In this document: one piece after another, positions 10,394 to 48,074 of the stretch | Layout of the letters: the number at the start of each line of letters is the position of its first letter | How positions within the stretch are numbered: position 1 is the stretch's first letter | Source of the DNA: a virus | Taxonomy: Duplodnaviria; Caudoviricetes | Virus record (IMG/VR): IMGVR_UViG_3300009467_000016 | Span: 1-57,846 of that record | Reading direction: 5' to 3' (one strand) | Length of the DNA: 57,846 nucleotides | The notes under the pieces: generated by a model | Databases searched by the model: none | Told to the model about the DNA's origin: nothing | Seen by the model: only the letters and a program-made list of their open reading frames with translations | Position numbers and translations under genes: made by a program

Positions 10394-10409
10394 TGTTTCA
10401 CGTGAAACA
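10394..10409. promoter_or_regulatory. parS: parS site 1
   Basis: Perfect TGTTTCACGTGAAACA palindrome in the divergent intergenic region. Confidence 0.88.
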
Positions 10410-10535
10410 TTCCTGATGAGTGAATTTATATGCAATGTATACTGGTTAGTCCCAAATAGTGGAACAAGTTAGCTATTAGTGTGCTTTTTATGCAACACTC
10501 TTAAAGAAAAACACATAGCTAGGGTATTTTTGGGG

Positions 10536-10563
10536 TTGACATGGGGTGTTATTTGTGTAAAAC
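10536..10563 (+). promoter_or_regulatory. Putative promoter of the late arm
   Basis: TTGACA-N16-TAAAAC(TA); a similar TTGACT-N16-TAAAAC(TA) lies at 10730-10757. Confidence 0.55.
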
Positions 10564-10580
10564 TACGGTAGTAGGTAGTA

Positions 10581-10750
10581 GTTAAACTTTAAAGTTTAAT
10601 TATCATGTTAAAACAAAAAAACACTTAACTAAAAGTTTAACTTACTACTTCGCATTAAGAAAAGTTTAACTTTAAAGTTTAACTACAGTTAATTATTTCT
10701 TATTATTTGTATAAATTACAACAAAACACTTGACTTAAAGTTTAACATAA
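10581..10750. repeat. AT-rich region with AAAGTTTAA(C/T) iterations
   Basis: Five direct copies, one inverted copy, and the 18-bp palindrome TTAAACTTTAAAGTTTAA at 10582-10599. Confidence 0.8.
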
Positions 10751-10760
10751 GTAAAACTAT

Positions 10761-11015
10761 ATGAAAATAGACAAACAAGAATCTGTACTAGAGACATTTT
10801 ACCTAGCGTTAGCTTCCAGTAACAACAAGGCGTTACATGAAGTTCACATCCCTATGTCTGATGTATTTTATGTACGAGCAGCTATTGAGGCTGACACTGG
10901 GGTTAGGTATACGTTAGACCACGTTGAGCGTTCAATGTACTTAGAGGGTCACTTAGGTCGTAAGGACGTATTAGACCCTGATAGACCAAGAGGATATTGT
11001 ACTTACGATGCCTAG
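10761..11015 (+). CDS. Hypothetical protein, first gene of late arm
   Basis: 84-aa ORF overlapping the next gene. Confidence 0.7.
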   Translation: MKIDKQESVLETFYLALASSNNKALHEVHIPMSDVFYVRAAIEADTGVRYTLDHVERSMYLEGHLGRKDVLDPDRPRGYCTYDA

Positions 11016-11199
11016 ACAGCACTTTGATGATTGGAAAGTAATGCCACGGCTTATGATGCTTGTGGTTACGCTTTTAACTTACCAAGTCACACATTGGTAC
11101 ATGGGTTTACCTGACCCTACCATACAGCAGAGTGGACTTGTATCAGTCGTAATGGGGGCATTAACCGGGTGTTTTGCAATATGGATGGGCAAAGAGTAA
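11008..11199 (+). CDS. Two-TM small membrane protein (holin-like)
   Basis: Two hydrophobic helices; lysis module context. Confidence 0.6.
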   Translation: MPRQHFDDWKVMPRLMMLVVTLLTYQVTHWYMGLPDPTIQQSGLVSVVMGALTGCFAIWMGKE

Positions 11200-11207
11200 G
11201 TATAGCC

Positions 11208-11396
11208 ATGCCGATTCACAAAGAAGTTAATCGCTTTCTTTGGATTATTAAGGGTAGGTTGGCTCCTGATGAGTACAGTGAGCAAGACTATTTAGACGTA
11301 CATGACGCTTACTTTAGACGGCTCTGGGGCAACCATGAGAACTGTGTCCATGAGGAAGGCTTTGAGGAAGCATATACGGAGAAGTATAACAAATGA
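11208..11396 (+). CDS. Hypothetical acidic protein
   Basis: ATG 11208; ATGA overlap with next gene. Confidence 0.6.
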   Translation: MPIHKEVNRFLWIIKGRLAPDEYSEQDYLDVHDAYFRRLWGNHENCVHEEGFEEAYTEKYNK

Positions 11397-11746
11397 TTGG
11401 TCAACTCATAGGTAGCCTTACAGGTTTAGCAACAAGTATCATTGATGGCAAGACCCAGATTAAACTCACTGAAGCTGAGATAAAGAAAAAGCAGCTTACA
11501 GGTGAGTTAGATTGGGACTTAGAAGCTATGAGGGCTACTGAGAATAGCTGGAAGGATGAATGGATTACTTTGTTGTTTAGCATTCCGCTTATCTTAGCTT
11601 TTTGTGGTGATTGGGGTAACGATATAGTAGCTAGGGGTTTTGCAGCGTTGGAGGTTATGCCTCAGTGGTATCAGATTGCATTAGGTGGTATTGTTTCAGC
11701 TTCCATAGGAATGCGTTCAGTGAGTAAGTTCTTTGGAAAGAAGTAA
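11393..11746 (+). CDS. Putative holin (3TM type)
   Basis: SWKDEW motif, hydrophobic helices, basic C-terminus, upstream of endolysin. Confidence 0.65.
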   Translation: MIGQLIGSLTGLATSIIDGKTQIKLTEAEIKKKQLTGELDWDLEAMRATENSWKDEWITLLFSIPLILAFCGDWGNDIVARGFAALEVMPQWYQIALGGIVSASIGMRSVSKFFGKK

Positions 11747-11762
11747 TAATGTAGTGATAAAA

Positions 11763-11870
11763 ATGCCACAGTTAAGTAACTTGGATAGGCAATACATTAC
11801 ATTAGAGAAACAGCAAGAGTTAATACGAGAGCAAGCAAAGCTCATAGAGGAGAAACAAAATGGGGTTTAA
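11763..11870 (+). CDS. Small coiled-coil peptide (35 aa)
   Basis: MPQLSNLDRQYITLEKQQELIREQAKLIEEKQNGV fills the gap before the endolysin. Confidence 0.45.
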   Translation: MPQLSNLDRQYITLEKQQELIREQAKLIEEKQNGV

Positions 11871-12312
11871 GTTATCATCACGTAGTATTGATCGTCTTGG
11901 CGGTATTGATGCAGGACTAATAACTGTAGTTAACACAGCTATTGACATGACTAAAGTTGACTTTGGTGTGACATGCGGTATGCGTACATTAGCCGAGCAG
12001 GAAGCTTTGGTAGCTAAGGGTGCATCACAAACCATGAAAAGCAAGCACTTAGAGGGTCGTGCAGTTGATCTTGTAGCTTACGTAGGGTCTAACGTTACTT
12101 GGGCTTTAAATATGTATGACGAGATAGCTGACGCTATGGCTGACGCTGCACGTATTCACGGTGTAGCTGTTAAGTGGGGTGCTGCTTGGAGTGTAGGTAA
12201 CATTGCTGAGTGGGACGGTTCTATGGAAGAAGCTATGAATAGCTATGTAGACCTACGCCGTTCTCAAGGTCGCAGGCCATTTATTGATGCTCCACATTTT
12301 GAAATGATGTAG
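11860..12312 (+). CDS. Endolysin, peptidase M15 (L-Ala-D-Glu peptidase-like)
   Basis: GMRT..EQ, SKHLEGRAVD, WG, DAPHFE Zn-peptidase motifs. Confidence 0.9.
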   Translation: MGFKLSSRSIDRLGGIDAGLITVVNTAIDMTKVDFGVTCGMRTLAEQEALVAKGASQTMKSKHLEGRAVDLVAYVGSNVTWALNMYDEIADAMADAARIHGVAVKWGAAWSVGNIAEWDGSMEEAMNSYVDLRRSQGRRPFIDAPHFEMM

Positions 12313-12323
12313 ATGTTTAGATT

Positions 12324-12659
12324 ATGGAGTTTATATTAGGATTAGCACTATCTGCCCACATAGGATTTGATAGAGGTTACAATAATGTACATCCCTTTTT
12401 TGATATAAGGCACGAAAATTTAATAATAGGTGGATACTATAATTCGTTGGAAACTACGAGTTTTTATTTTGGAAGATCAAATGAGTTATTTGAAGGTTTA
12501 TCTATTGAAACAGTAATTGTTTCTGGTTATAATGCCTCAATTATACCTACAACAAGACTGGTATTTGATAATTACTATGTTCTTATTGGAAAAGAAGGAA
12601 AAAACTACGGCCTTGTTATTGGCTATCAAATACCATTAAATACATATATTGGAGAATAA
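12324..12659 (+). CDS. AT-rich putative small outer-membrane beta-barrel-like protein
   Basis: YNNVHP...GGYYNS...SFYFG amphipathic strands; visibly lower GC than neighbours. Confidence 0.5.
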   Translation: MEFILGLALSAHIGFDRGYNNVHPFFDIRHENLIIGGYYNSLETTSFYFGRSNELFEGLSIETVIVSGYNASIIPTTRLVFDNYYVLIGKEGKNYGLVIGYQIPLNTYIGE

Positions 12660-12664
12660 ATAAA

Positions 12665-13195
12665 ATGCCATCTAAAGCTAAACCCATTCAAATGAAGACT
12701 ACTTATCATGTAGGTGGGGATACAAAAGCTGTTCCAAAATCAGTAGACATTAACGCCGCCAATGCACGTAATAAGTTTAATGCTGCAAACAAATCGGCTG
12801 TGAATGCACGTAATAAGTTTAATGCTGCAAACAAAGCAACGCCGACAGCAGTATCAACGCCGACAGCCGACCCAACGCCGACAGCCGATACACGCAAATC
12901 TCCAATCGGCATTATGAAAGAAAAATCAACGCCAAACAGACGAAGACCGTCAAGTCGTAGATTACAACAGATGCAAAGACGCAAATTAGCAATGATGCGT
13001 AGACGCGGAGGTGGACGTGTTTCACCAGCAGCTACTCCAACCCCTAGTCGTCCAACCCCTAGTAGAGGTGGACGTGTAATCCCTAGTAGAGGTGGGCGTC
13101 CAACCCCTCGTAATATGGCTGTTAGAGGGCCAAGACGCGCTACAGGTGGCAGACGTAGACTTGGCAGAAACCTTAGTCGTTTTTCGTTTCAGTAA
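12665..13195 (+). CDS. Arg/Pro-rich low-complexity basic protein with internal repeats
   Basis: NARNKFNAANK x2, PTA(D) repeats, PSRGGR x2; GGAG RBS. Confidence 0.7.
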   Translation: MPSKAKPIQMKTTYHVGGDTKAVPKSVDINAANARNKFNAANKSAVNARNKFNAANKATPTAVSTPTADPTPTADTRKSPIGIMKEKSTPNRRRPSSRRLQQMQRRKLAMMRRRGGGRVSPAATPTPSRPTPSRGGRVIPSRGGRPTPRNMAVRGPRRATGGRRRLGRNLSRFSFQ

Positions 13196-13209
13196 GGTAG
13201 TATTGCAAT

Positions 13210-13488
13210 ATGAGCATAGATTACAGGGGAGAGACATTTGCAGGTTATAACAAGCCGAAGCGTACCCCTGATCACCCGAAAAAAAGTCATGCCGTTCTTG
13301 CGAAAGAAGGTACAACCATTAAGCTCATCAGGTTCGGTGAACAAGGAGCGAAGACCGCCGGGAAGCCAAAAAAAGGTGAATCCGACAAGATGAAGAAAAA
13401 ACGTGCATCCTTTAAAGCAAGACACGGTAAAAACATAAAAAAGGGAAAACTCAGCGCAGCATACTGGGCTGATAGAACAAAATGGTAA
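13210..13488 (+). CDS. Conserved basic phage protein
   Basis: FAGYNKPKRTP...LIRFG...SFKARH...SAAYWA...KW pattern recalled from marine phages. Confidence 0.8.
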   Translation: MSIDYRGETFAGYNKPKRTPDHPKKSHAVLAKEGTTIKLIRFGEQGAKTAGKPKKGESDKMKKKRASFKARHGKNIKKGKLSAAYWADRTKW

Positions 13489-13511
13489 CACGCTATAAAG
13501 GATAATATATC

Positions 13512-14063
13512 ATGGCAACTACAACTTTAACACAAGGTATTGAAGAATACCAATCAGACATTACATTTGGTAATGGCATTGACGTAACAGGCACTGGTGC
13601 ATTTAGTGGCGCAGTAACCCTGTTGAAACCTATTGAAAGTATTACTGCTGCAACACGTACTGTGCTTGCTGCTGAGTCAGGTACAATTTTTAGTCTTAAT
13701 CGTGCTGCGGGGATTGTTGTAACTTTACCTGCTGCTGCTGTTGGACTTAACTATAAGTTCCACATTGGTACTACAGGTACTGGTACACTTACTATTAATG
13801 CAGCTACATCTGCTGATACCCTTCAGGGTGTAGTAATGATGCATGACAAAGACGAAGTAGGTTCTGTTGTTGTTCTTAATGAGAACATTCAGACCTCTGC
13901 TTTTGCTGTTCCTGCCGCTGCTGATCACCAGCTTGTAATGGATGCTGACACTAAGGGACGTTTTGTCGGTGGTATTGTTGAGTACACCTGCTTGTCAGAT
14001 TCCAAGTGGGTTGTAGAGGGACACCTCTTTGGTGACGGCAACTCAGTAACTCCATTCACATAA
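13512..14063 (+). CDS. Putative virion structural (fibre/decoration-like) protein
   Basis: Thr/Gly-rich beta protein, AAESG...RAAGIVVTLPAA. Confidence 0.6.
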   Translation: MATTTLTQGIEEYQSDITFGNGIDVTGTGAFSGAVTLLKPIESITAATRTVLAAESGTIFSLNRAAGIVVTLPAAAVGLNYKFHIGTTGTGTLTINAATSADTLQGVVMMHDKDEVGSVVVLNENIQTSAFAVPAAADHQLVMDADTKGRFVGGIVEYTCLSDSKWVVEGHLFGDGNSVTPFT

Positions 14064-14100
14064 TTTTAATTTGCTATAATAAAAGAGGGGGTAGTTACTA

Positions 14101-14367
14101 ATGTCAGGACCAACTAAGATATCTGTAACTCCTCCTTTAGGCAAACGTAACTATCGTAAAGAATACGATAACTACCACGCCTCACCAGAGCAAAAGAAAA
14201 AGAGAGCCTCACGCAACGCTGCACGTAAACGCAGTGCAGCAAAACCGGGGCAGGACGTTCATCACAAAAATGGCAATCCTTTAGATAACAGGAAGGGCAA
14301 CTTAGCTGTTGTATCCCCTAGCTCTAATAGATCGTTTCCACGTGATCGTAACGCTAGGAAAACGTAA
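14101..14367 (+). CDS. HNH endonuclease
   Basis: DVHHKNGNPLDN..GNL...NR. Confidence 0.85.
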   Translation: MSGPTKISVTPPLGKRNYRKEYDNYHASPEQKKKRASRNAARKRSAAKPGQDVHHKNGNPLDNRKGNLAVVSPSSNRSFPRDRNARKT

Positions 14368-14383
14368 CGGGAGTTAAAACACA

Positions 14384-14686
14384 ATGGTTGACCAAGCCGC
14401 ATTGGTAGGAGAACACTTAGGATGGGCTGTAGAAGACGCAGTTACTCTAGGTGATACTGCTACTACACACGTAGTTTGCACTAACGCTAAGATGGTGCTT
14501 ATTGAGACAAGTCACGCTTTAGATATAGGTTTTGCTACAGCAGAAGCTGACATTACAGATAACGACATTATGTTACCTGCTGGTGTTCACAGTCTTGTTG
14601 TACCTAAAGCTATAGGTAACGCTACAATTTTAAATTACAGACGAGGTAGCAGTACAAGTACGCTAGTTCGTGTTGTATTAACATAA
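14384..14686 (+). CDS. Hypothetical (possible structural) protein
   Basis: 100-aa ORF with GGGAG RBS. Confidence 0.7.
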   Translation: MVDQAALVGEHLGWAVEDAVTLGDTATTHVVCTNAKMVLIETSHALDIGFATAEADITDNDIMLPAGVHSLVVPKAIGNATILNYRRGSSTSTLVRVVLT

Positions 14687-14701
14687 AGGGGATTACACAA
14701 G

Positions 14702-15400: not shown

Positions 15401-15487
15401 TGCATAACGGGATTGCATTCTTGTATGTAGTCCTTTAAGTCAAAGCATGGTATAACTATCTCTGGTAATACATAGAGGAGTTATACC

Positions 15488-15640
15488 ATGTTTAAAACAT
15501 TTATCAAAGCATTACAAGACAGTCAAATGCGTAGAGTGCAATACTGGCAGTTAGTTAATATGTCAGATTCTGCGCTTAAAGACATTGGAGTCACACGTGG
15601 CGAAATTAAGCAAAAGTTCTACGGTAAAGAAGGTACCTAA
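15488..15640 (+). CDS. DUF1127 (YjiS-like) small protein, 50 aa (not in ORF track)
   Basis: MFKTFIKALQDSQMRRVQYWQLVNMSDSALKDIGVTRGEIKQKFYGKEGT has the LxxMSDxxLKDIGxxRxEI signature; GAGGAG RBS; TGgTATAAC -10 at 15448-15456. Confidence 0.85.
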   Translation: MFKTFIKALQDSQMRRVQYWQLVNMSDSALKDIGVTRGEIKQKFYGKEGT

Positions 15641-16289: not shown

Positions 16290-16654
16290 GTAGAGTACTA
16301 AACGAAAAGCAACAACTCTTTATGCAAGTCTTATTTGATGAAGCACAAGGTGACGTTGTACAAGCTAAGAAGCTTGCAGGTTATGCTGATGGCTCATCTA
16401 CTAAGACTATTGTAGAGAGCTTAAAGGATGAGATATTTGAGGCTACAAAGACTTATATGTCGCGACTTGGGCCTAAAGCTGCGGTTGCTTACGGTAGTGC
16501 TTTGGTTGACCCTACGCAGCTTGGTATTAAAGAAAAGATGGTAGCTGCAGGTCAAATCTTAGATCGTGCTGGTATAGTTAAGACTGAGAAGGTTGCAGTA
16601 GAAGCTAGTGGTGGTTTGTTTATCTTGCCACCTAAAGAAAGTGACGATGACTAA
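16286..16654 (+). CDS. terS: Terminase small subunit (putative)
   Basis: LNEKQQLF...AKKLAGY HTH-like N-terminus, ILDRAG; position upstream of TerL. Confidence 0.7.
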   Translation: MSRVLNEKQQLFMQVLFDEAQGDVVQAKKLAGYADGSSTKTIVESLKDEIFEATKTYMSRLGPKAAVAYGSALVDPTQLGIKEKMVAAGQILDRAGIVKTEKVAVEASGGLFILPPKESDDD

Positions 16655-17060
16655 ACACTTTGCGTTTAATGACTTAGGTTATTGGATGTTACCTAAGCCT
16701 AAGAAACTACGACATTGGGAGAGAATACCAAGGCTAGTTAAGTTTGTACCTTTTGGCTACGAGATAGACCCAAAAGATGAACGTTGGTTAAACCCTATTG
16801 AGAAAGAGTTAGAACTATTAGAGCTTGCAAAGAAACACTTAAAGCAATATAGTTATAGAGAAGTTTCTGCTTGGTTAACTACACAGTCAGGTAAAAGCAT
16901 ATCTCATATGGGCTTAAAAAAGAGGGTAGACCTTGAGCGAAAACGTAAAGCAACTGCTAGAATCAAACGTAAGCTTGCCAAAAGGCTCCAAGAAGCGATC
17001 ACGCAGTACGAAACGCTTGAAAAAGAAAGGACAGGATACTACACCTGTCCAGCCGAGTAA
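16647..17060 (+). CDS. DNA-binding protein with recombinase-domain-like motifs
   Basis: VPFGY...SYREVSAWL...ISHMGL; start placed at ATG 16647. Confidence 0.6.
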   Translation: MTKHFAFNDLGYWMLPKPKKLRHWERIPRLVKFVPFGYEIDPKDERWLNPIEKELELLELAKKHLKQYSYREVSAWLTTQSGKSISHMGLKKRVDLERKRKATARIKRKLAKRLQEAITQYETLEKERTGYYTCPAE

Positions 17061-18516
17061 GAATGTTTCACGTGAAACAGTGCCAGCCACAGTTATACCT
17101 GCACCGTTTGACGTAGAACAAGCACAGAATATTGTATTTCAACCTAATCCCGGCCCTCAGACTCAATATCTAGCGTCAGGAGAGCGCGAAGTACTTTACG
17201 GTGGGGCAGCAGGTGGCGGTAAAAGCTACGCTACACTCGCTGACCCCTTACGTAACTTAAACCATCACGCATTTAGTGGGTTGCTTGTGCGCCACACTAC
17301 AGAGGAACTTAGGGAACTTATTCAGAAAAGCCAAGAGTTGTACCCTAAAGCAATTCCGGGCATTAAGTGGTCAGAGCGTAAGTCTCAATGGGTTACACCT
17401 AGAGGTGGTCGCATTTGGATGAGTTACCTAGATAAAGACCAAGACGTTATGCGCTACCAAGGACAGGCGTTTAACTACATTGCATTTGATGAGTTAACTC
17501 AATGGAATACACCGTTTGCGTGGAACTACATGCGCTCACGTTTACGTAGTGCTTCACCTGAGTTAGGCTTGTACATGAGGGCTACTACAAACCCCGGCTC
17601 TATAGGCCACGCTTGGGTTAAGAAGATGTTTATTGACCCGTCTGAGCCTAACAAGCCTTTTTGGGCTACCGATATTGAAACAGGGAAGACCTTAGCGTAC
17701 CCTAAAGGTCACACTAAAGAAGGTCAACCTTTGTTTAAGCGTAGGTTTATACCTGCAAGTTTGTTTGACAATCCATACTTAGCTGACAGTGGCGATTATG
17801 AGACTATGCTGCTATCTATGCCAGAGCATCAACGTAAGCAACTACTAGAAGGAAACTGGGATGTTAATGAGGGTGCAGCCTTCCCTGAGTTTAATAGACA
17901 AATTCACGTTGTTGACCCTTATGACATTCCTAATAGCTGGGCGAAGTTCAGAGCTTGCGATTACGGTTACGGCAGTTGGACAGGTGTTGTGTGGTTTGCC
18001 GTATCACCCTCTGAGCATCTTGTAGTTTATAGAGAAATGTATGTCACCAAAGTTACTGCTACTGACTTAGCGGATTTAATATTAGAGGCAGAGTCAGATG
18101 ATGGCACCATAAGATACGGCGTGTTGGACTCGTCCCTTTGGCATAAAAGAGGTGACACTGGTCCTAGTCTAGCGGAGCAAATGATTATGAAGGGCTGTCG
18201 CTGGAGACCTTCTGATCGTTCTAAAGGTTCTAGGGTGTCAGGCAAAAATGAGATACACCGCCGTTTGCAGGTAGACGAGTTTACTGAGGAACCCCAACTC
18301 GTATTCTTTTCTACCTGCACCAACTGCATAGCACAGATACCTAGCATACCTTTAGATAAGCGTAACCCTGAAGACGTAGATACAAACGCAGAAGATCACT
18401 TGTACGATGCTTTAAGGTATGGTATCATGACAAGACCTAGAAGTTCCTTGTGGGATTTCAACCCTTCAACACAGAGAAGCGGTTTTCAAGCTGCTGATCC
18501 AGTATTCGGATATTAA
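16933..18516 (+). CDS. terL: Terminase large subunit (start uncertain)
   Basis: Walker A YGGAAGGGKS, Walker B IAFDE, ATTNPG, RNase H-like CDYG and DHLYDALRY. Confidence 0.95.
   Translation: MSENVKQLLESNVSLPKGSKKRSRSTKRLKKKGQDTTPVQPSKNVSRETVPATVIPAPFDVEQAQNIVFQPNPGPQTQYLASGEREVLYGGAAGGGKSYATLADPLRNLNHHAFSGLLVRHTTEELRELIQKSQELYPKAIPGIKWSERKSQWVTPRGGRIWMSYLDKDQDVMRYQGQAFNYIAFDELTQWNTPFAWNYMRSRLRSASPELGLYMRATTNPGSIGHAWVKKMFIDPSEPNKPFWATDIETGKTLAYPKGHTKEGQPLFKRRFIPASLFDNPYLADSGDYETMLLSMPEHQRKQLLEGNWDVNEGAAFPEFNRQIHVVDPYDIPNSWAKFRACDYGYGSWTGVVWFAVSPSEHLVVYREMYVTKVTATDLADLILEAESDDGTIRYGVLDSSLWHKRGDTGPSLAEQMIMKGCRWRPSDRSKGSRVSGKNEIHRRLQVDEFTEEPQLVFFSTCTNCIAQIPSIPLDKRNPEDVDTNAEDHLYDALRYGIMTRPRSSLWDFNPSTQRSGFQAADPVFGY
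17064..17079. promoter_or_regulatory. parS: parS site 2 (inside TerL N-terminal extension, encodes VSRET)
   Basis: Perfect TGTTTCACGTGAAACA. Confidence 0.88.
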
Positions 18517-18518: not shown

Positions 18519-20669
18519 ATGGACCCAGATGATTTCACAACAGACTTTGAAACTAACTTAGAGTCAGGCGAGTCTTCTCACATTGAAGACGTTACTTCTG
18601 AAAGTATGCATGATCCTAAGACAGGTCACATTATTAATCTAGTAATGGATCGTTACAAACGTGCAGAAGATGCTCGTATGACAGACGAAACACGTTGGAT
18701 GGATGCTTACCGTAACTACCGTGGTATATACAACAACGAAGTCCAATTTACTGAAACTGAAAAGTCGCGTGTATTTGTCAAGGTAACTAAAACTAAAACA
18801 CTGGCTGCATATGGTCAGATTGTAGATGTACTCTTTGGTAGTCACAAGTTTCCATTAGCTATTGATCCTACTACGCTCCCAGAGGGCGTGGCTGAGTCCG
18901 TACACTTTGATGCTTCACCTAAAGCAGAGGAAGGTATGGAAGAACTAAAAGAGGCGTTTACCCCGCCTATGTTTAGCTCTGAAGAATCAAGACTACAACC
19001 CGGAGAGACTATAGAATCTTTACGAGAGCGTCTAGGTGGCATGGCTAAGAAGCTAGAGCCTGTAGAAGATAAACTTATTGAGGGTCAAGGTACACTCCCT
19101 ACAAGCATTACTTTTAATCCTGCACTTGTTGCAGCTAAGAAGATGCAAAAGAAAGTACATGATCAGCTAGAAGAGTCAGGGGCTAACAAGCAACTGCGCC
19201 TAGCTGCCTTTGAGACTGCTTTATTTGGCACTGGTATTATGAAGGGTCCATTTGCTGTAAATAAAGAGTACCCTAATTGGGATGAAGAAGGTGAGTACAA
19301 GCCAACCATTAAGACTGTACCATCTACTAGCCATGTTTCTATTTGGAACTTTTATCCTGACCCTGATGCTGCTAACATGGATGAGGCTGAGTATATCGTA
19401 GAGCGACACAAGATGTCACGCTCACAGGTTCGTGCATTAAAGGGTAGACCTTTCTTTCGTGATAACGCCATTGATAAGTCTCTTGCTATGGGTGAGTCCT
19501 ATGAGAAGAAATGGTGGGAGCAAGCTATGGAGGATGACGCTCAAAGCGGTAAAGCATAGCGTTATGAAGTACATGAGTTCTGGGGTTTCGTTGATAGAGA
19601 AGTCCTTGAAGAGTACGATGTAGATATTCCTAAAGAGTTAAAAGATACAGAGCAAGTCAACGTAAACATTTGGGTATGTAACCATCAAGTCTTGCGTCTT
19701 GTAATGAACCCATTTAAACCTGCACTTATTCCTTACTACGCTGTACCTTATGAGCTTAACCCATATAGCTTCTTTGGTGTAGGTATAGCTGAAAATATGG
19801 ATGATACACAAACTCTTATGAATGGCTTCATGCGTATGGCTGTAGACAATGCAGCCTTAAGTGGTAATATGCTTATTGAAGTAGATGAAACCAACCTAGT
19901 TCCCGGCCAAGATTTAAGCGTGTACCCCGGAAAAGTCTTTAGAAGACAAGGTGGTGCGCCGGGACAAGCTATTTTTGGAACCAAGTTCCCCAACGTGTCA
20001 GGCGAGAACATGCAGATGTTTGACAAGGCACGTGTATTAGCAGATGAGAGTACAGGCTTCCCTAGCTTTGCTCATGGTCAGACAGGAGTTTCAGGTGTCG
20101 GACGTACAGCTTCTGGCATTAGTATGCTCATGTCTGCTGCTAATGGTTCTATACGGAATGTAATTAAGAACGTAGATGACTACATGCTTAAGCCTTTAGG
20201 TAAAGCGTTCTTTAACTTCAACATGCAGTTTGACTTTGATCCTGAGATTAAGGGTGACTTAGAGGTACGCGCACAGGGTACTGAGAGCTTGATGGCTAAC
20301 GAAGTGCGTAGCCAGCGTTTGATGCAGTTCTTGCAAGTAGCACAAAATCCTGTACTGGCACCGTTTGCTAAGATGGATTACCTTATTCGTGAGATTGCAG
20401 TTAGCATGGATTTAGACCCTGAGAAGCTCACAAACAGCTTACAAGACGCCGCTATCCAAGCGGAGATACTGAAGCAGTTCCAGCAGCCTCTACCACAGCC
20501 ACCAGAAGAAGGAGTTCCCCAGTCGGGTACTACCCCACCCCAAGGCGCAGCACCCACAGGACAGGCTCCTACAGGGCCACAGGACGCATCAGGTGGAGGC
20601 GGCGGTAACATTGGAGTAGGCTCTGCACCTGCGCCGGGAGAACAAGGCTTTACTGGAAGGCCACAATAA
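18519..20669 (+). CDS. Portal protein interrupted by one in-frame TAG (19557-19559)
   Basis: ORFs 18519-19559 and 19692-20669 share a frame and the gap is open (RYEVHEFWG...); portal-like FGTGIMKGP, FFGVGIAE; follows TerL. Confidence 0.85.
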
Positions 20670-21295
20670 TGAGCATAGGAGTTTTACTAGGTAAGCAGCT
20701 TGCCAAGGCTATTAAGGGTACAGGCGATGATGTAGCTGATGAGACTGTAGAGGCTTTGGGTAAGACTTCTGCTAAACCTGAACGCTTTGATCCTGAAGCT
20801 TTAAAGAGGGCGGCTAATCAAAACGACAAGTCAAGAGAAATACTTGTTGATATGCCTATAGAAGACTTTCTTAGAGTTTCAGAAAAAGTAAGTCCTGACG
20901 ATCCGGCTAGGGCTGACTCAAGAAAAGTAACAAAAGAGCTTGTAGAAAAAGGTACGCCTTTTAGGTCTATTCCAAGTCTTACATTTGAAAACTTAGGGGA
21001 TGGTACAGCAAAAGCTACAGGGCATGAAGGGCGTCACAGAGCTATGGCTTTACTTGCTGCAGGAGAAGATACTATTCCTGTAGTTTTGCATAGTTATGGA
21101 GGTAAAGGTGGTAGTATTCGTTGGGGCCAACAAAGTGATCCTGACAGTTTTGACTATATAGATGTATTACCTGACAGGCTAAAGAGTGAAGACACAGATG
21201 ATGTAGTGCCTATGCCTGACGCTGCAAGAAACATACGTAAAAAAGCTTCAGCAGAGAACATCCGTAGCTTAGTACAAAGGCCAATCAACAAATGA
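20669..21295 (+). CDS. ParB/Srx-fold-like domain protein
   Basis: GHEGRHRAMALLAAGEDTIPVV resembles the ParB/sulfiredoxin GxHR motif, helix and IPV strand. Confidence 0.55.
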   Translation: MSIGVLLGKQLAKAIKGTGDDVADETVEALGKTSAKPERFDPEALKRAANQNDKSREILVDMPIEDFLRVSEKVSPDDPARADSRKVTKELVEKGTPFRSIPSLTFENLGDGTAKATGHEGRHRAMALLAAGEDTIPVVLHSYGGKGGSIRWGQQSDPDSFDYIDVLPDRLKSEDTDDVVPMPDAARNIRKKASAENIRSLVQRPINK

Positions 21296-41356: not shown

Positions 41357-41374
41357 ATACAAGGGGGAATTGAT

Positions 41375-42235: not shown

Positions 42236-42251
42236 AAAGGCAACAATAAAA

Positions 42252-42860: not shown

Positions 42861-42864
42861 AGAC

Positions 42865-44430
42865 ATGGGTATTAGTGGAAATGCATTAGCTTTTATTGGT
42901 GGTGCTGCAGAGCAATTCGCAGAAAACAAACAAGGGTTTAAAAAAGAACTACGTGACAATAAACGTAAACAGAAAGAATGGTTAAACACATATGGCAACA
43001 AAGCCCTTGATGAAACCAAGCAGCAGCAAGAGAGTGTAGAATTAGCCTTAGATGAGCTAGAAGCGCGAGGATTAAAGACGCCAGATGCACTTCAACTTTT
43101 GCAAAGGCATGGTGTAAATGCTGTACTTGAATTAAATAAAACCGTAAAAGATTATGAGTCGGCTAATAGCACAACGGTAGATGCAGACCTTATGAATAAA
43201 ATATGGAAGGCTGCAGAAGATTTCACACCTACAAGTCAAAGCTTTGAAGAAGCTGTCTCTAAAGTCTTTGGTACAAATAAAGCAGGTTCTACAGCCCCTG
43301 TAATACAAGAGTCAGAAGAAAGAGGTTTCTTTGATAAAATTAAAGCCAACCTTAGTGGTGCCTATGAAGATGAAGAATATGATGACTTCTTAAATGATGC
43401 AAGCGAAGGTATGGGTGGATACACTATCAATGAACTAAGAGCAATGTCAGAGTCCTCACTTTCTATGGTGGGTTCTGATGGTGCTGCTGTGTTTGACAGG
43501 TCTGTTCTTAGGGGTGATGAACCTTCGGCTGGTGAAGTTAGACTTTGGAAAAACACTACAAATATCATCGTGCGAGAGGCACTTAAAAATCTTTCACCAG
43601 CAGACAGACAAGCAGTTGGAAAAAGAGAAAACTCTAATTTGGACTTAGTAGACCGTGACACAGATGATATATTCTTTGATTTAGCTGACCCTGATGGTGT
43701 TTATTTTGAAGCCTTTAGTGAAGCTACTAGAAAAGTACACGAACAAAATCCTTTCTCTAACAACAGGGCTGCTACAGGTGCATATGGCGGTCAAGATGCT
43801 CTAAATGCAATACTTAATCCACCAGAACCACCTACACCAGAAGAGTTAGCAGAACAACTTGAGCAAGACCTAATAGATAATAATCTAACAGAGGCTAGAC
43901 CTGAAGATTTAGGTGAATCTACAGACGCACAAGTAGGTGAATACTTTAGGGACAATAATAAAGACTTTGTTATATCAAATGGAGAGTTAGTCGGGCGTCC
44001 AGAAGATGCACCCTTTGATGAATCTAAAGTTGTAGAATTGCCCCCAACAGAATTGCCCGTAGAAGAAGGTACATATAACACAGACGATCTAACTCTAAAA
44101 GCCCAACCTACTGTAGCACCTGAAGGCATCCCTGTACGTCCAGAGCCTAGATATGCAGGTGGTGAAAAAACCAGACCCCTACAAAAGCCTTTAAACAGAA
44201 GAGACCTAGATGATTGGGATGATCAATATGAAGATAAGTATAACCCTGATGCTACTTACAAGATAGTTAGACCTCAAGGCCCAAGACCTGAAGATACAAA
44301 TAGCCGAGAGTATTATGAGTATGAGCTTTGGGATGCTACCTACGGAGATACCCATGATCCCCTTACAGGATACCCTCTAATAGAAGGCTTAGATAAGACC
44401 CTCATTCCTAACTCAGAGGTTGCTGACTAA
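42865..44430 (+). CDS. Putative internal virion protein
   Basis: 521-aa acidic ORF in the ejection module. Confidence 0.6.
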   Translation: MGISGNALAFIGGAAEQFAENKQGFKKELRDNKRKQKEWLNTYGNKALDETKQQQESVELALDELEARGLKTPDALQLLQRHGVNAVLELNKTVKDYESANSTTVDADLMNKIWKAAEDFTPTSQSFEEAVSKVFGTNKAGSTAPVIQESEERGFFDKIKANLSGAYEDEEYDDFLNDASEGMGGYTINELRAMSESSLSMVGSDGAAVFDRSVLRGDEPSAGEVRLWKNTTNIIVREALKNLSPADRQAVGKRENSNLDLVDRDTDDIFFDLADPDGVYFEAFSEATRKVHEQNPFSNNRAATGAYGGQDALNAILNPPEPPTPEELAEQLEQDLIDNNLTEARPEDLGESTDAQVGEYFRDNNKDFVISNGELVGRPEDAPFDESKVVELPPTELPVEEGTYNTDDLTLKAQPTVAPEGIPVRPEPRYAGGEKTRPLQKPLNRRDLDDWDDQYEDKYNPDATYKIVRPQGPRPEDTNSREYYEYELWDATYGDTHDPLTGYPLIEGLDKTLIPNSEVAD

Positions 44431-47400
44431 TGAGAGTTATTGACGCAAAGTTTATAAACCCCAGCCAACAAGAGCCTGACTTCATGACCTACACAGGTGG
44501 TGAGAAGGATACGTTTGGCATTAGTGATCTCACAGAGGATCACAACTACAACGTCATTGAAGCGCAGATGAAAGCTCGCTTTGGTATGTCTGAGAAGTCT
44601 CACGACAGGCAAGAAGTCGTAGATAAGTGGATTAATTACAACAGAAAGTTTAACGTAGGTAACACCCTTAGTGTACTAGGTGAAGCCAGCTACTTAAGCA
44701 AAGCTGACGATGAAGAGAAAGTAAAAGCTCTCAACTCGTACAAGCTCTTTGATAACATGAAGGGAGCCTTTAGTGGTGGTACAGCAGCAGAAAAGCTAGA
44801 CAGTGTGTACGACTACGGTATGGCTTTAATTGTGGACCCTGTTAACTTGGTCAGCTTTGGTGTTGGTAAGTTAGCTACAGGCGGTGGATCAAAAGTAGCT
44901 GCAGGTGCGGCAAAAGAAGCCTTAGAGATATCAGCTAATCAGATACTACGTAAGGCAGGACAGACGGGTGCTAAACGATCTGCACTTAAGCCAGCCGTAA
45001 AAGCTGAGATAGGTAGAGCGCGTCAACGTGTACTTAGTAAGGCACTAAAAGGCGAGGCTGTAGAAGGCTTAGAGGAAGGCGTTGTAGAGGGTGCGCTTAA
45101 GAAGGCTGCAACTAAAGAGTTTAGATACGGCATAGGCACTGAGACTGTTAGTGCTATGGGTATTGATGCCATTCAGCAGAACATGGCGTACCGTGAGGTA
45201 GGCTTTCAAGATGAGTTCAGCTATCTAAACTCTGGCTTAATTGCTGGTGGGGGTTTCTTTGGCTATGGATTAGCTAAAGCGTTTGGTATGATGGACGGTA
45301 CAGACCTACCCAAGTCTGTAGCGTTAGAGGCTTATGATGCTGCTGTAACGGCAGAGGCTGCAGCTAGAAAGATAGCAAGGCAAGAAGGTGAAGCCACCTA
45401 CAAAGATGCTATGGCAAACCTAGCTAACGATGAAGAACTCCAACGCAAAACTATGGAGAGCCTAAAGAATAACACTGCTGCTGCACAAAGTTGGGCTGAA
45501 ATGGTAGCCTCTGGTAAGCGTATAGCAGAAGAAACAGGTGACAGGTATGAAGGTAGTGGTGCAGAGGGTTTATCCGCTTTTATCTTTGGTAAGAAAGATT
45601 TGCCAGAAGGCCGAAACTTCAAAGGGCTTTTTGATATATTTAATGATGCGGGAATTGATCTGGCGTATGCAGATGATGTATGGCAGGGTACTACCCACTT
45701 TGTAACTAGCACAGTCAAAGCCCTACCACAAAATGTCAAGAATGAAGTAGATAGTCTGTACAAAAATACTGTACTTAAGTTAGACACAGTGTATGAAAGC
45801 AAGACAAACCTAGATGACGCTATGGACTTCATGGCAAGTGATTATAGTTCTATGGGTGCTAGGATGGGCGTCATGGGCGGCTTGGGAAGAGAAGTAGAAA
45901 AGATACGTAAAGTAAAGCAAGCCACAGGACAAACTAACCTTAAAGTCACAGGGGAGGAAATGCTAGATGGTATCATAGACCCTAGCACAGGAACAGCTAA
46001 GAACGTTGACAAAGTAGAGCGTAGCTTGATGGGACGCTCACAGGATAACCTTATACGTATTCTTGTAACTCATCCCGGTACTACTGCGCTTAACTTGTTA
46101 GGCTGGGTCAACGCCTCTGGTATGCAATCTCTGTCTGATGGGCTTAGGGGTGCGCTTTATGGTGGGGCTTCTGTAGCACAGTACATAACAGGCAACAAAG
46201 CCAATGCTGTTGAGTACGCTGAGAAGTCTAAGCTTATGCTAACCCTGCAAGGCGAAAAGATGAAAAACTTGCTTAACCCTTTTGCTACACAAGAGGAAGC
46301 ACTTAACTTCTTATCGCTTAACCCTAAGATGCGTAAAGAACTATTCCGCTATGTATCTGGTGGCCTAGACAGTAAGGATGTTCTTAAAACGTTAGACTTA
46401 GAGTTTGATGATCTTGAAAAACCGGGCGTCTTTGAGAAAGTTATTGATACATTCCAAACAGTGTATGGCGTTAAGGCTGTAGATGTATTAACTAAGACAC
46501 AAGAGTTTATGTACAACATAGACAAACAAATACGCATTAAGTACAACATGAGTTACCAAGACTTCATAGGTGCTAAGGATGCTCAAGGTCAACCCCTACA
46601 CTGGGCTAAGATGCGCTCTGATGATTTCGTTGCAATACAAGCCACTGCTGTTGAGGACTCACTGCGTAGTGTGTTCTCTAAGTCCTTTGGCGGTGGTGAC
46701 TTTAAGAGAGACCGTAACATTGTAGAAATGGCTGCTAAAGGTATAGAGGATGCACGTAAGTATCCTATCCTTGGTGCTATGATCCCGTTTGGTCAGTTCT
46801 TTAACAACACTATTGCCTTTATGACTGACTACTCAGGCATTAGTATAGTACACTCTTATTTTGCTAAGAACAACAGAGACCTTATGGAAATGTCTACTAA
46901 GGCTGCTGTAGGTTTGACTTCTATTACTGCCATGTCTGAATACGAAATGAAGAACATGGATGAAGGCTTGGCTTGGCATGAGGAACGTGACGATGATGGA
47001 CAAGTAAGGTCACGCCTGTATGACTTCCCGTTTAGCTACTACAAAGGCATAGGACGTATTGTAGCGCACTTTAGACGTGACGGTGAAGTACCACCTGAGT
47101 TGTACGATGATATCGTAACTACGTTTGGTACAGCTAACCTTACACGTTCTTTGGGTGAGTCATCAGCCTCTGCGTTTGACTTTATGAAGGACGTTGCTTC
47201 TGGTAAATATCCTGATGCAGTAGAAGGCTTACAAAAAGCTATGGGTAATGTAGGTTCTATGTACCTGTCAGGGTACAGCAGACCGTTAGACCCTCTTAAT
47301 CAAATTACAGCGTTTGCTATGGGTGACGCCTACAATGAAACAGATCGTAACATTGGTAGTAAGTTTATCAACAACTCCACACGTTACGTTGAGAGTATCT

Positions 47401-48017
47401 TTGACGGCTTTGACCAGCTTACAGGAATACCTACTGCTGCAGGTACTGCACTAGGATTAGACATGACAGAAACACCTGCTAAGGAAAGACCTTTGGAAGA
47501 AAGACCTAGAGGCGTAGCTATTGGGCGTATCTTTGGTTACAGGGACTCACCTGCACCACAGGCTATTGATAAGATGTTTGCCGATATAGGTAAGCCTAAG
47601 TGGAAGACAGATATTAAGTCTGCTGTGCCAGAGGCCAACAATACGCTTAACAGGGTTATAACTAAATACTTAGAAGCAGAAGCAGCTAAGGTTGTCTATG
47701 GTGATAAATGGAAGAACGCATCATTAGATCAAAAGATATCTGATCAAAAATTAGCAGTATCTAAGGCTAAGAAAAGAGCCTTAGCTGAGTTGTATAGATC
47801 AGGCAACCCTACAGATAAACGCCACCGTGAAATGTTTAAAATTAGTAGGCGAGGGTCAGGTGTCACTATGACTGACATGGAGGAAGCTTTAGAGGAGATT
47901 GGCATAGATAAGAAAGTAGAAGACTTATCATACGATCAGCTACGATTGCTAAGGCGTTTTCTAAAGATGGAGAAGCGAGACTTAAAACGCTCATCCAGAG
48001 AATCACTTAGAGGTTAA
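44430..48017 (+). CDS. Large internal virion / ejection protein (putative)
   Basis: 1195 aa, last gene of late arm, DPVNLVSFGVGK motif. Confidence 0.65.
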   Translation: MRVIDAKFINPSQQEPDFMTYTGGEKDTFGISDLTEDHNYNVIEAQMKARFGMSEKSHDRQEVVDKWINYNRKFNVGNTLSVLGEASYLSKADDEEKVKALNSYKLFDNMKGAFSGGTAAEKLDSVYDYGMALIVDPVNLVSFGVGKLATGGGSKVAAGAAKEALEISANQILRKAGQTGAKRSALKPAVKAEIGRARQRVLSKALKGEAVEGLEEGVVEGALKKAATKEFRYGIGTETVSAMGIDAIQQNMAYREVGFQDEFSYLNSGLIAGGGFFGYGLAKAFGMMDGTDLPKSVALEAYDAAVTAEAAARKIARQEGEATYKDAMANLANDEELQRKTMESLKNNTAAAQSWAEMVASGKRIAEETGDRYEGSGAEGLSAFIFGKKDLPEGRNFKGLFDIFNDAGIDLAYADDVWQGTTHFVTSTVKALPQNVKNEVDSLYKNTVLKLDTVYESKTNLDDAMDFMASDYSSMGARMGVMGGLGREVEKIRKVKQATGQTNLKVTGEEMLDGIIDPSTGTAKNVDKVERSLMGRSQDNLIRILVTHPGTTALNLLGWVNASGMQSLSDGLRGALYGGASVAQYITGNKANAVEYAEKSKLMLTLQGEKMKNLLNPFATQEEALNFLSLNPKMRKELFRYVSGGLDSKDVLKTLDLEFDDLEKPGVFEKVIDTFQTVYGVKAVDVLTKTQEFMYNIDKQIRIKYNMSYQDFIGAKDAQGQPLHWAKMRSDDFVAIQATAVEDSLRSVFSKSFGGGDFKRDRNIVEMAAKGIEDARKYPILGAMIPFGQFFNNTIAFMTDYSGISIVHSYFAKNNRDLMEMSTKAAVGLTSITAMSEYEMKNMDEGLAWHEERDDDGQVRSRLYDFPFSYYKGIGRIVAHFRRDGEVPPELYDDIVTTFGTANLTRSLGESSASAFDFMKDVASGKYPDAVEGLQKAMGNVGSMYLSGYSRPLDPLNQITAFAMGDAYNETDRNIGSKFINNSTRYVESIFDGFDQLTGIPTAAGTALGLDMTETPAKERPLEERPRGVAIGRIFGYRDSPAPQAIDKMFADIGKPKWKTDIKSAVPEANNTLNRVITKYLEAEAAKVVYGDKWKNASLDQKISDQKLAVSKAKKRALAELYRSGNPTDKRHREMFKISRRGSGVTMTDMEEALEEIGIDKKVEDLSYDQLRLLRRFLKMEKRDLKRSSRESLRG

Positions 48018-48021
48018 TACG

Positions 48022-48059
48022 AAAAAAGGGGCGGTCACAACGACTGCCCCTCTTGCTTT
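48022..48059. terminator. Bidirectional terminator at the convergence of the two arms
   Basis: A6-GGGGCGGTC-ACAAC-GACTGCCCC-TCTTGCTTT. Confidence 0.85.
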
Positions 48060-48074
48060 GTTTCACGTGAAACA
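48059..48074. promoter_or_regulatory. parS: parS site 3
   Basis: Perfect TGTTTCACGTGAAACA between the terminator and the stop codon at 48076. Confidence 0.88.

What the first reader, a model, noticed from the sequence alone, without database searches (positions are those of the whole stretch)
10394..48074. Three perfect chromosomal parS sites: candidate hijack of host ParABS/SMC
Seen: the exact 16-bp palindrome TGTTTCACGTGAAACA at 10394 (divergent control region), 17064 (TerL N-terminal extension, just after the stop of the preceding gene) and 48059 (between the bidirectional terminator and a stop codon). Three exact copies in 58 kb cannot plausibly be chance. No ParA or complete ParB is recognisable. 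Established: this is the canonical chromosomal parS bound by ParB/Spo0J, which recruits ParA and SMC, and MipZ in Caulobacter; Bacillus phage phi29 uses parS sites to enter spores. I do not know of a report for marine HMO-2011-type phages. Inference: the phage loads host ParB to segregate as an episome in slow-growing cells, to position or compact its DNA, or to titrate ParB and stall host segregation and division.
Basis: partly seen in the sequence, partly recalled or inferred. Interest (0 to 1): 0.87.

Follow-up and report, generated by a model that had tools for sequence, protein, structure and literature searches.

The report
Host centromere sites on marine phage
An uncultured lineage of a very common type of ocean phage carries two to four exact copies of the DNA site that bacteria use to load their chromosome-sorting protein ParB, yet has no ParB of its own, so it most likely borrows the host's, as the Bacillus phage phi29 does.

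Summary
Observation confirmed. TGTTTCACGTGAAACA occurs exactly three times (10394, 17064, 48059). There are no other copies at up to 3 mismatches, and 0 of 100 shuffles reach three.

The window is a complete 57.8-kb HMO-2011-type podovirus. It has a tyrosine integrase. It has no ParB N-terminal domain, ParB HTH or ParA.

All three sites are syntenic and under sequence constraint in relatives:
- Site 1 is 100% identical in 8 distinct sequences whose flanks are 37-47% alike.
- Site 2 lies inside TerL codons V-S-R-E-T and is present in 9 of 9 loci with TerL at or above 91% identity.
- Site 3 is exact in 23 of 23 loci carrying the adjacent 67-aa gene.

On a TerL tree the parS-bearing phages form one clade (support 100/99). 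The wider family lacks the site: 0 of 71 more distant TerL loci and 0 of 13 GenBank genomes at up to 1 mismatch.

The same 16-mer is the chromosomal parS of the likely host family. It was found in 112 of 121 genomes, usually as two sites beside parAB.

Best reading: these are selected loading sites for host ParB. What they achieve (episome partition, ParB titration, or compaction/silencing) is untested.

This is a new variant of the phi29 precedent. The scan has noted host-type parS on other ParB-less phages before.

The parts
10394..10409 (.). parS site 1, in the 871-nt non-coding control region between the divergent gene blocks
   Evidence: Exact match. An exact copy lies 259-385 nt upstream of the homologue of gene 10761-11015 in 9 of 80 related loci. 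Across 8 distinct sequences the 16-mer is 100% identical, while the 30-nt flanks are 47% and 37% alike.
17064..17079 (.). parS site 2, inside the variable N-terminal linker of TerL (codons N-V-S-R-E-T), 4 nt after the stop of the preceding gene
   Evidence: Present (0-1 mismatch, position 1 T or A only) in 9 of 9 loci with TerL >=91% identical, and absent there in 71 of 71 with <=87%. Flanks differ by substitutions and indels.
48059..48074 (.). parS site 3, at the convergence point of the two gene blocks, between a terminator and the stop of a small gene
   Evidence: Exact in 23 of 23 loci that encode a homologue (66-96% aa identity) of the adjacent gene, always 5-11 nt after its stop codon and followed by the hairpin.
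9890..10760 (.). Largest non-coding region: divergence point of transcription and minimum of cumulative GC skew. It carries AAAGTTTAAC-type repeats at 10578-10746, which are distinct from parS.
   Evidence: ORF 9995-10300 gives an implausible protein with no family hit.
16933..18516 (+). Terminase large subunit. Its basic N-terminal extension overlaps gene 16608-17060 in another frame and contains parS site 2.
   Evidence: PF03237 at 3.3e-08. The in-frame start is TTG at 16933, where relatives L132 and L157 have ATG. The N-terminal peptide is conserved in the TerL frame.
48027..48051 (+). G+C-rich terminator hairpin ending the rightward (structural) block, 7 nt before parS site 3
   Evidence: 10 pairs, 7 G-C, T-rich tail. 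Conserved with the parS in the 23 loci.
48076..48279 (-). 67-aa two-helix protein of unknown function, always found next to parS site 3. The gene, the parS and the terminator form one conserved module.
   Evidence: AF2 pLDDT is 80 with two helices. No PDB fold match (best E 1.9). No Pfam or PHROG hit. The Atlas gives a lead only: Acb2_Tad1_hairpin on 16-40% of cluster members, score 0.90.
2881..3807 (-). Tyrosine integrase
   Evidence: phrog_1 at 2.6e-30; PF00589 at 4.7e-15. Homologues are also present in the parS-less relatives G008 and G016.
20669..21295 (+). 208-aa protein with a ParB/Srx-type N-domain (GHEGRHRA...TIPV) and no HTH; not a parS reader by homology
   Evidence: No Pfam hit at E<=0.1. 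AF2 pLDDT is 71. The top Foldseek hits are PadC, Osa, sulfiredoxin and Noc at E about 1e-2, prob 0.94-0.98. Its family occurs in many phages without parS: only 6 of 80 loci have a site. Not found in the parS-bearing G001 and G002.

Best explanation
The three 16-mers are genuine, selected parS sites that load the host's own ParB onto phage DNA.

Shown here: they are identical to the chromosomal parS of the likely host family, the phage has no ParB or ParA, and the 16 bases are held constant at three syntenic places in one clade while the neighbouring DNA diverges.

Inferred from established ParB biology (recalled, not tested): host ParB dimers bind each site, close into CTP-dependent sliding clamps and spread over neighbouring DNA. 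With sites about 6.7, 31 and 20 kb apart on the circular map, this could cover much of the 58-kb genome.

Most likely use: the ParB-coated, non-integrated phage genome is positioned and partitioned by the host ParA/ParB machinery when the lytic programme is stalled or delayed. This would be a carrier or pseudolysogenic state, or the time before integration, in a slow-growing marine host, so that daughter cells inherit the genome. That is the role shown for the parS sites of phi29, without the spore.

My odds: host ParB loading is the selected function, about 0.8. Partition or positioning is its main pay-off, about 0.4.
For: - Exactness and number: 3 exact copies, none degenerate, 0 of 100 shuffles reach 3. 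It is the only recurring long palindrome in the genome.
- Host identity: a Rhodobacteraceae-labelled genome has two exact copies flanking mnmG beside rsmG-parA-parB, and its ParB is confirmed by Pfam. In that genome's family, 112 of 121 genomes have the site at <=1 mismatch, mostly exactly two about 1.9 kb apart. The phage therefore carries more parS than a typical host chromosome.
- No phage reader.
- Constraint at site 1: 100% identical over 8 distinct sequences against 37-47% in the flanks.
- Constraint at site 2: 15 of 16 positions invariant in 9 distinct sequences, including all synonymous positions of V-S-R-E-T, within a linker that otherwise varies in sequence and length.
- Constraint at site 3: exact in 23 of 23 loci while the adjacent protein drops to 66% identity.
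- One origin: the 10 parS-bearing TerL rows form one group, support 100/99, 1 change, 0 of 500 shuffles as low.
- Precedent: phi29 carries five parS sites and uses host Spo0J to get its genome into the spore (PMC2731898, passages).
Only 1 of those 119 held loci encodes a ParB detectable by tblastn. The cultured Clostridium phage phiCP7R (18.4 kb) has 7 sites, and a Pseudomonas phage has two sites of a variant type.
Against: - No binding or localisation data exist.
- The host is unknown. It is inferred only from the nearest cultured relatives, which are about 70% identical over half of the TerL-portal region, and the phage family also infects SAR116 and SAR11.
- The sites are not needed for the HMO-2011-type way of life. 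They are absent from 0 of 13 GenBank genomes at <=1 mismatch, from the complete relative G008, and from the 71 of 80 TerL loci with <=87% identity.
- The phage has an integrase, and a relative, CRP-3, integrates at a tRNA gene (PMC6918029, passages). Stable inheritance could therefore come from integration, and three ectopic parS in a lysogen's chromosome might be costly.
- A single centromere would suffice for partition. Here the sites are dispersed and sit at operon boundaries, which fits regulatory or titration readings as well.
- No prophage or episome of this lineage was found in 401 sampled genomes of the candidate host family (best TerL match 57%).
Confidence: 0.42

Rival explanations
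1. ParB sponge. The sites still load host ParB, but the pay-off is titration. Once the phage genome replicates to tens or hundreds of copies, 3 sites per copy outnumber the roughly 2 chromosomal sites. Host ParB is drawn away from the origin region. Chromosome segregation stalls, and so does division in alphaproteobacteria where ParB positions MipZ. This would be a protein-free host take-over.
For: The phage has 3 sites, against mostly 2 in genomes of the candidate host family. The sites are dispersed, not clustered. The lineage has its own replication module (DnaB-like helicase, primase, family A polymerase), so high copy number is expected. That extra parS copies disturb the cell cycle in Caulobacter is recalled knowledge, not checked here.
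Against: There are only 2-4 sites per genome, where a sponge might be expected to carry many. Earlier scan notes describe phages with 20-32 sites (unchecked). There is no evidence on copy number or host phenotype. The sites sit at precise, conserved places rather than anywhere convenient.
Confidence: 0.2
2. ParB-dependent organisation or control of the phage genome. ParB clamps, or SMC loaded by them, would act from the module boundaries: the divergent promoter region, the start of the packaging/structural block and the convergent terminators. There they would compact the genome, insulate the modules, or hold back rightward (late) transcription until ParB is displaced.
For: All three sites sit at boundaries of transcription units. 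In the window and three relatives, site 1 lies 6 nt downstream of a -10-like hexamer (TAGACT or TACAAT, read from the sequences). This promoter falls below the scan's threshold, so it is inference only. In relative G001 an extra site also sits beside a terminator-like hairpin.
Against: No promoter is established and there are no expression data. ParB-mediated silencing is mild in the chromosomal systems I recall. The position relative to the -10-like element is not kept in the G001 group, where it is about 27 nt away.
Confidence: 0.15
3. The palindrome is read by a phage-encoded or other host factor, not by ParB. Candidates would be an undetected HTH protein such as gene 16608-17060 or the ParB/Srx-fold protein 20669-21295. 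The identity to parS would then be coincidental or mimicry.
For: Many phage genes here have no known function. A ParB/Srx-fold domain protein exists. The 67-aa gene is always adjacent to site 3.
Against: A full 16 of 16 match to the host family's parS at three to four separate places is very unlikely for an unrelated operator. The ParB/Srx-fold protein lacks an HTH, is missing from the parS-bearing G001 and G002, and its family is common in phages without parS (6 of 80 loci have a site). Gene 16608-17060 is conserved in parS-less relatives. The 67-aa protein is a plain helical hairpin without a DNA-binding fold match.
Confidence: 0.07
4. The sites serve recombination. The 16 bp shared with the host chromosome would act as a core for the phage integrase, or as homology for integration next to the host origin.
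For: An integrase is present. The host carries identical 16-mers.
Against: Three to four copies per genome would invite internal deletions and inversions. A perfect palindrome gives no direction to a recombination core. None of the sites is next to the integrase gene. The related CRP-3 uses a tRNA-Met site (PMC6918029). Contigs laid on the window showed no phage-host junction at a parS (contigs only, weak).
Confidence: 0.03
5. No function. The copies are recent hitch-hikers or chance products kept by linkage.
For: Site 3 lies in a module whose flanks are also highly conserved, so there its constancy alone is not proof of selection.
Against: Sites 1 and 2 stay exact, or 15 of 16, while the flanks fall to 37-70% identity and change length. 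0 of 100 shuffles give three copies. A same-composition control palindrome is about 60 times rarer in IMG/VR.
Confidence: 0.03

Closest known systems
parS sites of Bacillus phages phi29 and Nf, read by host Spo0J (work of Meijer and colleagues as summarised in PMC2731898; passages read)
   Same: A phage without its own ParB carries several dispersed copies of the host's chromosomal parS (five in phi29) and exploits the host partition protein for the fate of its unintegrated genome.
   Different: phi29 is a 19-kb protein-primed virulent phage of a spore-former, and the pay-off is entrapment in the spore. Here the phage is a 58-kb integrase-bearing podovirus of marine, presumably non-sporulating alphaproteobacteria, so the pay-off must differ. 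The sites sit at module boundaries, and one lies inside the TerL gene.
Chromosomal ParABS centromeres (parS bound by ParB/Spo0J; the survey of Livny et al. 2007 is seen only as a citation in PMC10197239)
   Same: Identical 16-bp palindrome. In the candidate host family it occurs as two copies next to parA-parB.
   Different: There is no parA or parB on the element. The sites are dispersed over the whole replicon rather than clustered near an origin.
Plasmid-prophage partition systems (P1 ParAB-parS, N15 SopAB, mycobacteriophage parABS); recalled, not checked here
   Same: Centromere-like sites on a phage genome that serve inheritance of an extrachromosomal form.
   Different: Those phages encode their own ParA and ParB and use private site sequences. 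This phage encodes neither and uses the host's sequence.
Other ParB-less phages with host-type parS
   Same: Multiple host-consensus sites with no phage ParB. Examples seen here are phiCP7R (7 sites in 18.4 kb) and at least 119 IMG/VR contigs. Earlier notes of this scan (unchecked) describe more.
   Different: These are different phage families and hosts (Firmicutes, Streptomyces-like, Pseudomonas), and some carry far larger arrays or a ParA. I found no published account of them. Supplements were closed.

Membership tests
Chromosomal-type parS (ParB/Spo0J binding site) | Match to the 16-bp palindromic consensus | tested here: met
   Three 16 of 16 matches. The same 16-mer flanks mnmG beside parAB in a Rhodobacteraceae-labelled genome and is present in 112 of 121 genomes of its family at <=1 mismatch.
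Chromosomal-type parS (ParB/Spo0J binding site) | Specific binding by ParB and CTP-dependent clamp loading | not testable with these tools
   Needs EMSA, ChIP or similar. Only sequence constraint consistent with a strict reader was shown.
Self-contained ParABS partition cassette (plasmid or plasmid-prophage type) | parB encoded on the same element | tested here: not met
   PF02195 and PF17762 give no candidate in six frames at E<=10. tblastn with a family ParB finds no hit. Only a ParB/Srx-fold N-domain without HTH is present.
Self-contained ParABS partition cassette (plasmid or plasmid-prophage type) | parA encoded on the same element | tested here: not met
   tblastn with a family ParA finds no hit in the window at E<=1e-3. 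No ParA-like family appears among the PHROG and Pfam results for 65 of my 73 listed ORFs; 8 late-block ORFs were not scanned.
phi29-type exploitation of host ParB | Several host-consensus parS sites on a phage that lacks ParB | tested here: met
phi29-type exploitation of host ParB | Dependence on host Spo0J/ParB for the fate of the phage genome (spore entrapment in phi29) | not testable with these tools
   The host is uncultured and unknown. Sporulation is not expected in the candidate hosts, which is inferred from the nearest isolates infecting Rhodobacteraceae, SAR116 and SAR11.
HMO-2011-type phages | Synteny and similarity of hallmark genes (TerL, portal, family A DNA polymerase, helicase, primase, RNR) | tested here: met
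   The best GenBank matches are CRP-207, CRP-2, CRP-603 and HMO-2011. TerS and TerL order is as annotated in CRP-207.

The most novel reading that the evidence does not exclude
Host-type parS on ParB-less phages is a widespread strategy that has evolved repeatedly and gone largely unrecognised. In this abundant marine lineage it would work as a protein-free take-over device. A handful of 16-mers would re-route the host's essential ParB onto replicating phage DNA. That would dissolve the host's origin complex and its division control, and would gather the phage genomes into a ParB condensate that serves as a replication or packaging compartment.
Probability: 0.15. Interest if true: 0.85.

Novelty: new variant of a known kind. 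Interest (0 to 1): 0.62.

Why it matters
HMO-2011-type phages are among the most abundant viruses in the sea. Near-identical DNA to this genome is held by at least 14 marine metagenome runs.

If one of their lineages loads host ParB, then a bare 16-bp motif is enough for a phage to plug into the host's chromosome-segregation machinery. That bears on an open question: how phages persist in slow-growing, rarely lysogenised oligotrophs such as RCA roseobacters, through carrier states or pseudolysogeny.

The strong excess of exact parS in viral contigs (at least 119 against 2 for a control palindrome), and its presence in cultured phages of other phyla, suggest the phi29 trick is general. It can be tested with a plasmid, a ParB-GFP strain and three short sites.

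Tried and rejected
- RNA genes: tRNA and Rfam scans of the window found nothing, so there is no tRNA-type attP clue.
- Promoters: the promoter scan of the control region found no site above its threshold next to site 1 (5 found against 4.0 expected). The -10-like hexamer I mention is read by eye only.
- Host through prophages: the TerL search of genome contigs gave 11 loci. Most were phage contigs binned into MAGs of unrelated phyla (Flavobacteriaceae, Neomarinimicrobiota, Blastopirellula and others), which I do not take as hosts. In 401 sampled genomes of the family of G022 the best TerL match was 57%.
- Integrase region: by eye, the sequence at 3780-4140 showed no tRNA-like attP. I ran no attB search.
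- The 67-aa gene beside site 3: no Pfam or PHROG hit and no PDB fold match (best E 1.9). The Atlas hit to Acb2_Tad1_hairpin clusters (score 0.90, family on 16-40% of members) is a lead only.
- The ParB/Srx-fold protein as a parS reader: rejected, because it has no HTH, is not co-conserved with the sites and belongs to a family common in parS-less phages. A PDB sequence-profile search gave only chance-level ribosomal hits.
- Restriction-avoidance reading of the CACGTG core: rejected. There are 17 copies against 9.6 expected from base composition.
- Substitute palindromes in parS-less relatives: none recur in G008, G016 or G004.
- GenBank search for the site-3 module: no match among GenBank phages.
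- Reads: only Logan contigs were available. They cover the region, including relatives, but showed no phage-host junction and nothing about physical ends. 2342 differences were not listed, so I draw nothing on parS variants from them.
- Complex prediction: complex prediction was not used, because I make no claim of a specific protein-protein contact.
- Literature: one search was swamped by 'parse'-type words. Searches found no paper on host-type parS in marine or HMO-2011-type phages.

Full report
**1. The observation**

One search finds TGTTTCACGTGAAACA at 10394, 17064 and 48059. There is nothing else at up to three mismatches. Shuffles give a mean of 0.26 matches, and 0 of 100 reach three. 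It is the only palindrome of 14 nt or more that recurs in the genome.

The window is a whole IMG/VR virus record of 57,846 bases, rated complete. Its ends repeat over 112 bases. About 93% of it is coding by my ORF list.

**2. What the genome is**

The closest GenBank phages are the HMO-2011-type podoviruses of RCA roseobacters, SAR116 and SAR11. CRP-207, CRP-2 and CRP-603 are about 70% identical over half of the TerL-portal region.

Genes run leftward from 10300 round through the record's start to 48076. This block holds the replication and nucleotide-metabolism genes:
- RNR, MazG, nuclease, family A polymerase and DnaB-like helicase
- ThyX-like protein, primase, tyrosine integrase and methyltransferase

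Genes run rightward from 10761 to 48017. This block holds the endolysin, TerS, TerL, portal, structural genes and tail.

Cumulative GC skew turns at about 10 kb and about 48 kb. Site 1 therefore sits at the divergence point, in the largest non-coding stretch (9890-10760). Site 3 sits at the convergence point, 7 nt after a strong terminator hairpin and one base before the stop codon of a minus-strand 67-aa gene.

Site 2 begins 4 nt after the stop of gene 16608-17060. It lies inside TerL. The TerL frame is open from 16933 (TTG, which is ATG in relatives L132 and L157). It encodes a conserved basic N-terminal peptide followed by a variable linker, in which the parS reads N-V-S-R-E-T.

**3. No reader on the phage**

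ParB_N and HTH_ParB profiles give no candidate in six frames at E<=10, while ringing in 11 and 14 of 14 control genomes. ParA and ParB of a Rhodobacteraceae-labelled genome find nothing by tblastn. PHROG and Pfam scans of 65 of my 73 listed ORFs show no partition protein; the remaining eight ORFs of the late block were not scanned against either library.

- Its sequence has a GHEGRHRA...TIPV motif.
- The AF2 model has pLDDT 71.
- The best PDB fold hits are PadC, Osa, sulfiredoxin and Noc, at weak E of about 1e-2 with probabilities of 0.94-0.98.

It is therefore a ParB/Srx-type N-domain without an HTH. It is missing from the parS-bearing relatives G001 and G002. Its family is common in phages without parS: only 6 of 80 loci have a site, and 5 of those 6 are the relatives at >=66% identity that belong to the same clade.

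**4. Conservation**

Site 2. Of 80 IMG/VR loci with a TerL relative, the 9 with >=91% identity all have the site 16-25 nt before the conserved V/I-P-A. It is exact in 3 and has A for T at position 1 in 6. None of the 71 with <=87% identity has it there. Two of those 71 have a 2-mismatch hit more than 10 kb away, which I take as chance. In 9 distinct sequences, 15 of 16 positions are invariant. The 30-nt flanks are 70% and 43% alike and differ in length.

Site 1. Of 80 loci with a homologue of gene 10761-11015, 9 carry an exact parS 259-385 nt upstream, and some carry a second one about 1.3 kb further left. Of the ten most similar loci, eight have it. The other two hold fewer than 260 nt upstream. 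Over 8 distinct sequences the 16-mer is 100% identical, with flanks 47% and 37% alike.

Site 3. Only 4 of 80 RNR-anchored loci have it. The reason is that it travels with the 67-aa gene. All 23 of 23 loci encoding that gene (66-96% aa identity) have an exact parS 5-11 nt after the stop, followed by the hairpin. Relatives that lack the gene lack the site. Because the flanks of this module are themselves conserved, site 3 alone is weaker evidence of selection.

Several fragments carry sites 1 and 2 together at the expected spacing. Of 28 further records, 25 have at least one site.

Distribution on the tree. On a TerL tree of 58 rows the ten parS-bearing rows form one group. Support is 100/99, one change is needed, and 0 of 500 shuffles are as low. 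The rows were 56 of the 80 loci, the window and CRP-207. The 24 loci I left out were partial or near-duplicate, and all were parS-negative.

The complete relative G008 (58.6 kb), G016 (88% complete) and G004 have no site and no substitute recurring palindrome. Of 13 GenBank HMO-2011-type genomes, none has a site at <=1 mismatch and one has a 2-mismatch hit.

**5. The host side**

The host is not known. A Rhodobacteraceae-labelled MAG, reached through a distant TerL hit, has two exact copies flanking mnmG beside rsmG, parA and parB. Its ParB is confirmed by three Pfam domains.

In a sample of that genome's family, 112 of 121 genomes have the site at <=1 mismatch. Most have exactly two sites about 1.9 kb apart. 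One phage genome thus carries more parS than a typical chromosome of the candidate host family.

**6. How it most likely works**

Shown:
- Identity to the host family's parS.
- Absence of a phage ParB or ParA.
- Constraint on the 16-mer at three syntenic places.
- A single origin in one clade.

Inferred from established ParB biology (recalled): host ParB binds the sites, closes into CTP clamps and spreads. What follows is open.

I favour positioning and partition of the non-integrated genome by host ParA/ParB, at about 0.4. It is the demonstrated use in phi29. These phages infect slow-growing hosts that are said to be rarely lysogenised (PMC6918029, passages).

Titration of ParB (about 0.2) and ParB/SMC-dependent organisation or silencing from the module boundaries (about 0.15) fit the dispersed, boundary-located sites about as well.

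The integrase cuts against a pure episome reading. It is also present in parS-less relatives, so it is not linked to the sites.

**7. Comparison and novelty**

phi29 and Nf are the closest known case. The differences are the phage family, a presumably non-sporulating marine host, the presence of an integrase, and the placement of the sites.

I found no paper on parS in HMO-2011-type or other marine phages:
- The ISME J paper on the group has 0 mentions of parS or ParB (term search of the main text).
- Searches found none. Supplements were closed.

The phenomenon is broader than one lineage:
- 26 of those 119 loci have two or more sites, and only 1 has a detectable ParB in the held stretch.
- A 121-nt query around site 1 hit 219 GenBank phage records at E<=10, mostly Listeria, Clostridium and Bacillus phages.
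- I verified two of these records. phiCP7R has 7 sites, 4 of them exact. A Pseudomonas phage has two sites of a G-for-A variant type.
- Earlier notes of this scan report host-type parS on other ParB-less phages. I did not check them.

Verdict: a real, selected feature, and a new variant of a known kind.

Noticed in passing
window 19557-19559 (portal gene 18519-20669): The portal reading frame is interrupted by one in-frame stop codon (…SGKA*RYEV…) where relative G001 reads E. Both halves match portal/adaptor PHROGs. This could be a sequencing or assembly variant, a defective genome or read-through; it was not resolved.
   Followed up: partly
window 20669-21295: A 208-aa protein between the portal and the 1644-aa giant protein has a ParB/Srx-type N-domain fold without an HTH. 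Some relatives of it are fused to or lie beside ART-PolyVal (PF18760) proteins, so it looks like a virion-delivered 'polyvalent protein' module.
   Followed up: yes
window 48076-48279 (minus strand): A 67-aa two-helix hairpin protein is always found directly beside parS site 3 (23 of 23 loci). The ESM Atlas places it near clusters partly labelled Acb2_Tad1_hairpin (anti-defence sponges), at score 0.90, which is a lead only. There is no PDB fold match.
   Followed up: partly
window 10578-10746: The AT-rich control region carries at least six copies, in both orientations, of an AAAGTTTAAC-type motif, including a 22-nt inverted pair. These are candidate operators or origin repeats, distinct from parS.
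   Followed up: no
window 16933-17060: The TerL start (TTG, ATG in relatives) lies 128 nt inside the preceding gene in another frame. Both frames are conserved across the family: the TerL basic N-terminal peptide and the ...LEKER.GYYT... C-terminus of the upstream gene. GenBank annotation of CRP-207 starts TerL later and leaves most of the upstream gene unannotated.
   Followed up: partly
window 11008-11199 and 11393-11746 versus G001: Two small genes are 100% identical in protein to those of relative G001, while neighbouring genes are about 67% identical. This is a sign of recent recombinational exchange within the clade.
   Followed up: no
GenBank JQ729990.1 (Clostridium phage phiCP7R) and PP496413.1 (Pseudomonas phage vB_PpuM-Amme-3): phiCP7R (18.4 kb) has 7 parS sites, 4 of them exact and several in pairs about 25 nt apart. 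The Pseudomonas phage has two sites of the TGTTCCACGTGGAACA type, which I recall as the Pseudomonas variant.
   Followed up: partly
G001 (IMG/VR relative) 18567-18582: Relatives of the G001 group carry an extra exact parS about 1.3 kb left of site 1, again next to a terminator-like hairpin. Genomes of that group probably have four sites.
   Followed up: partly
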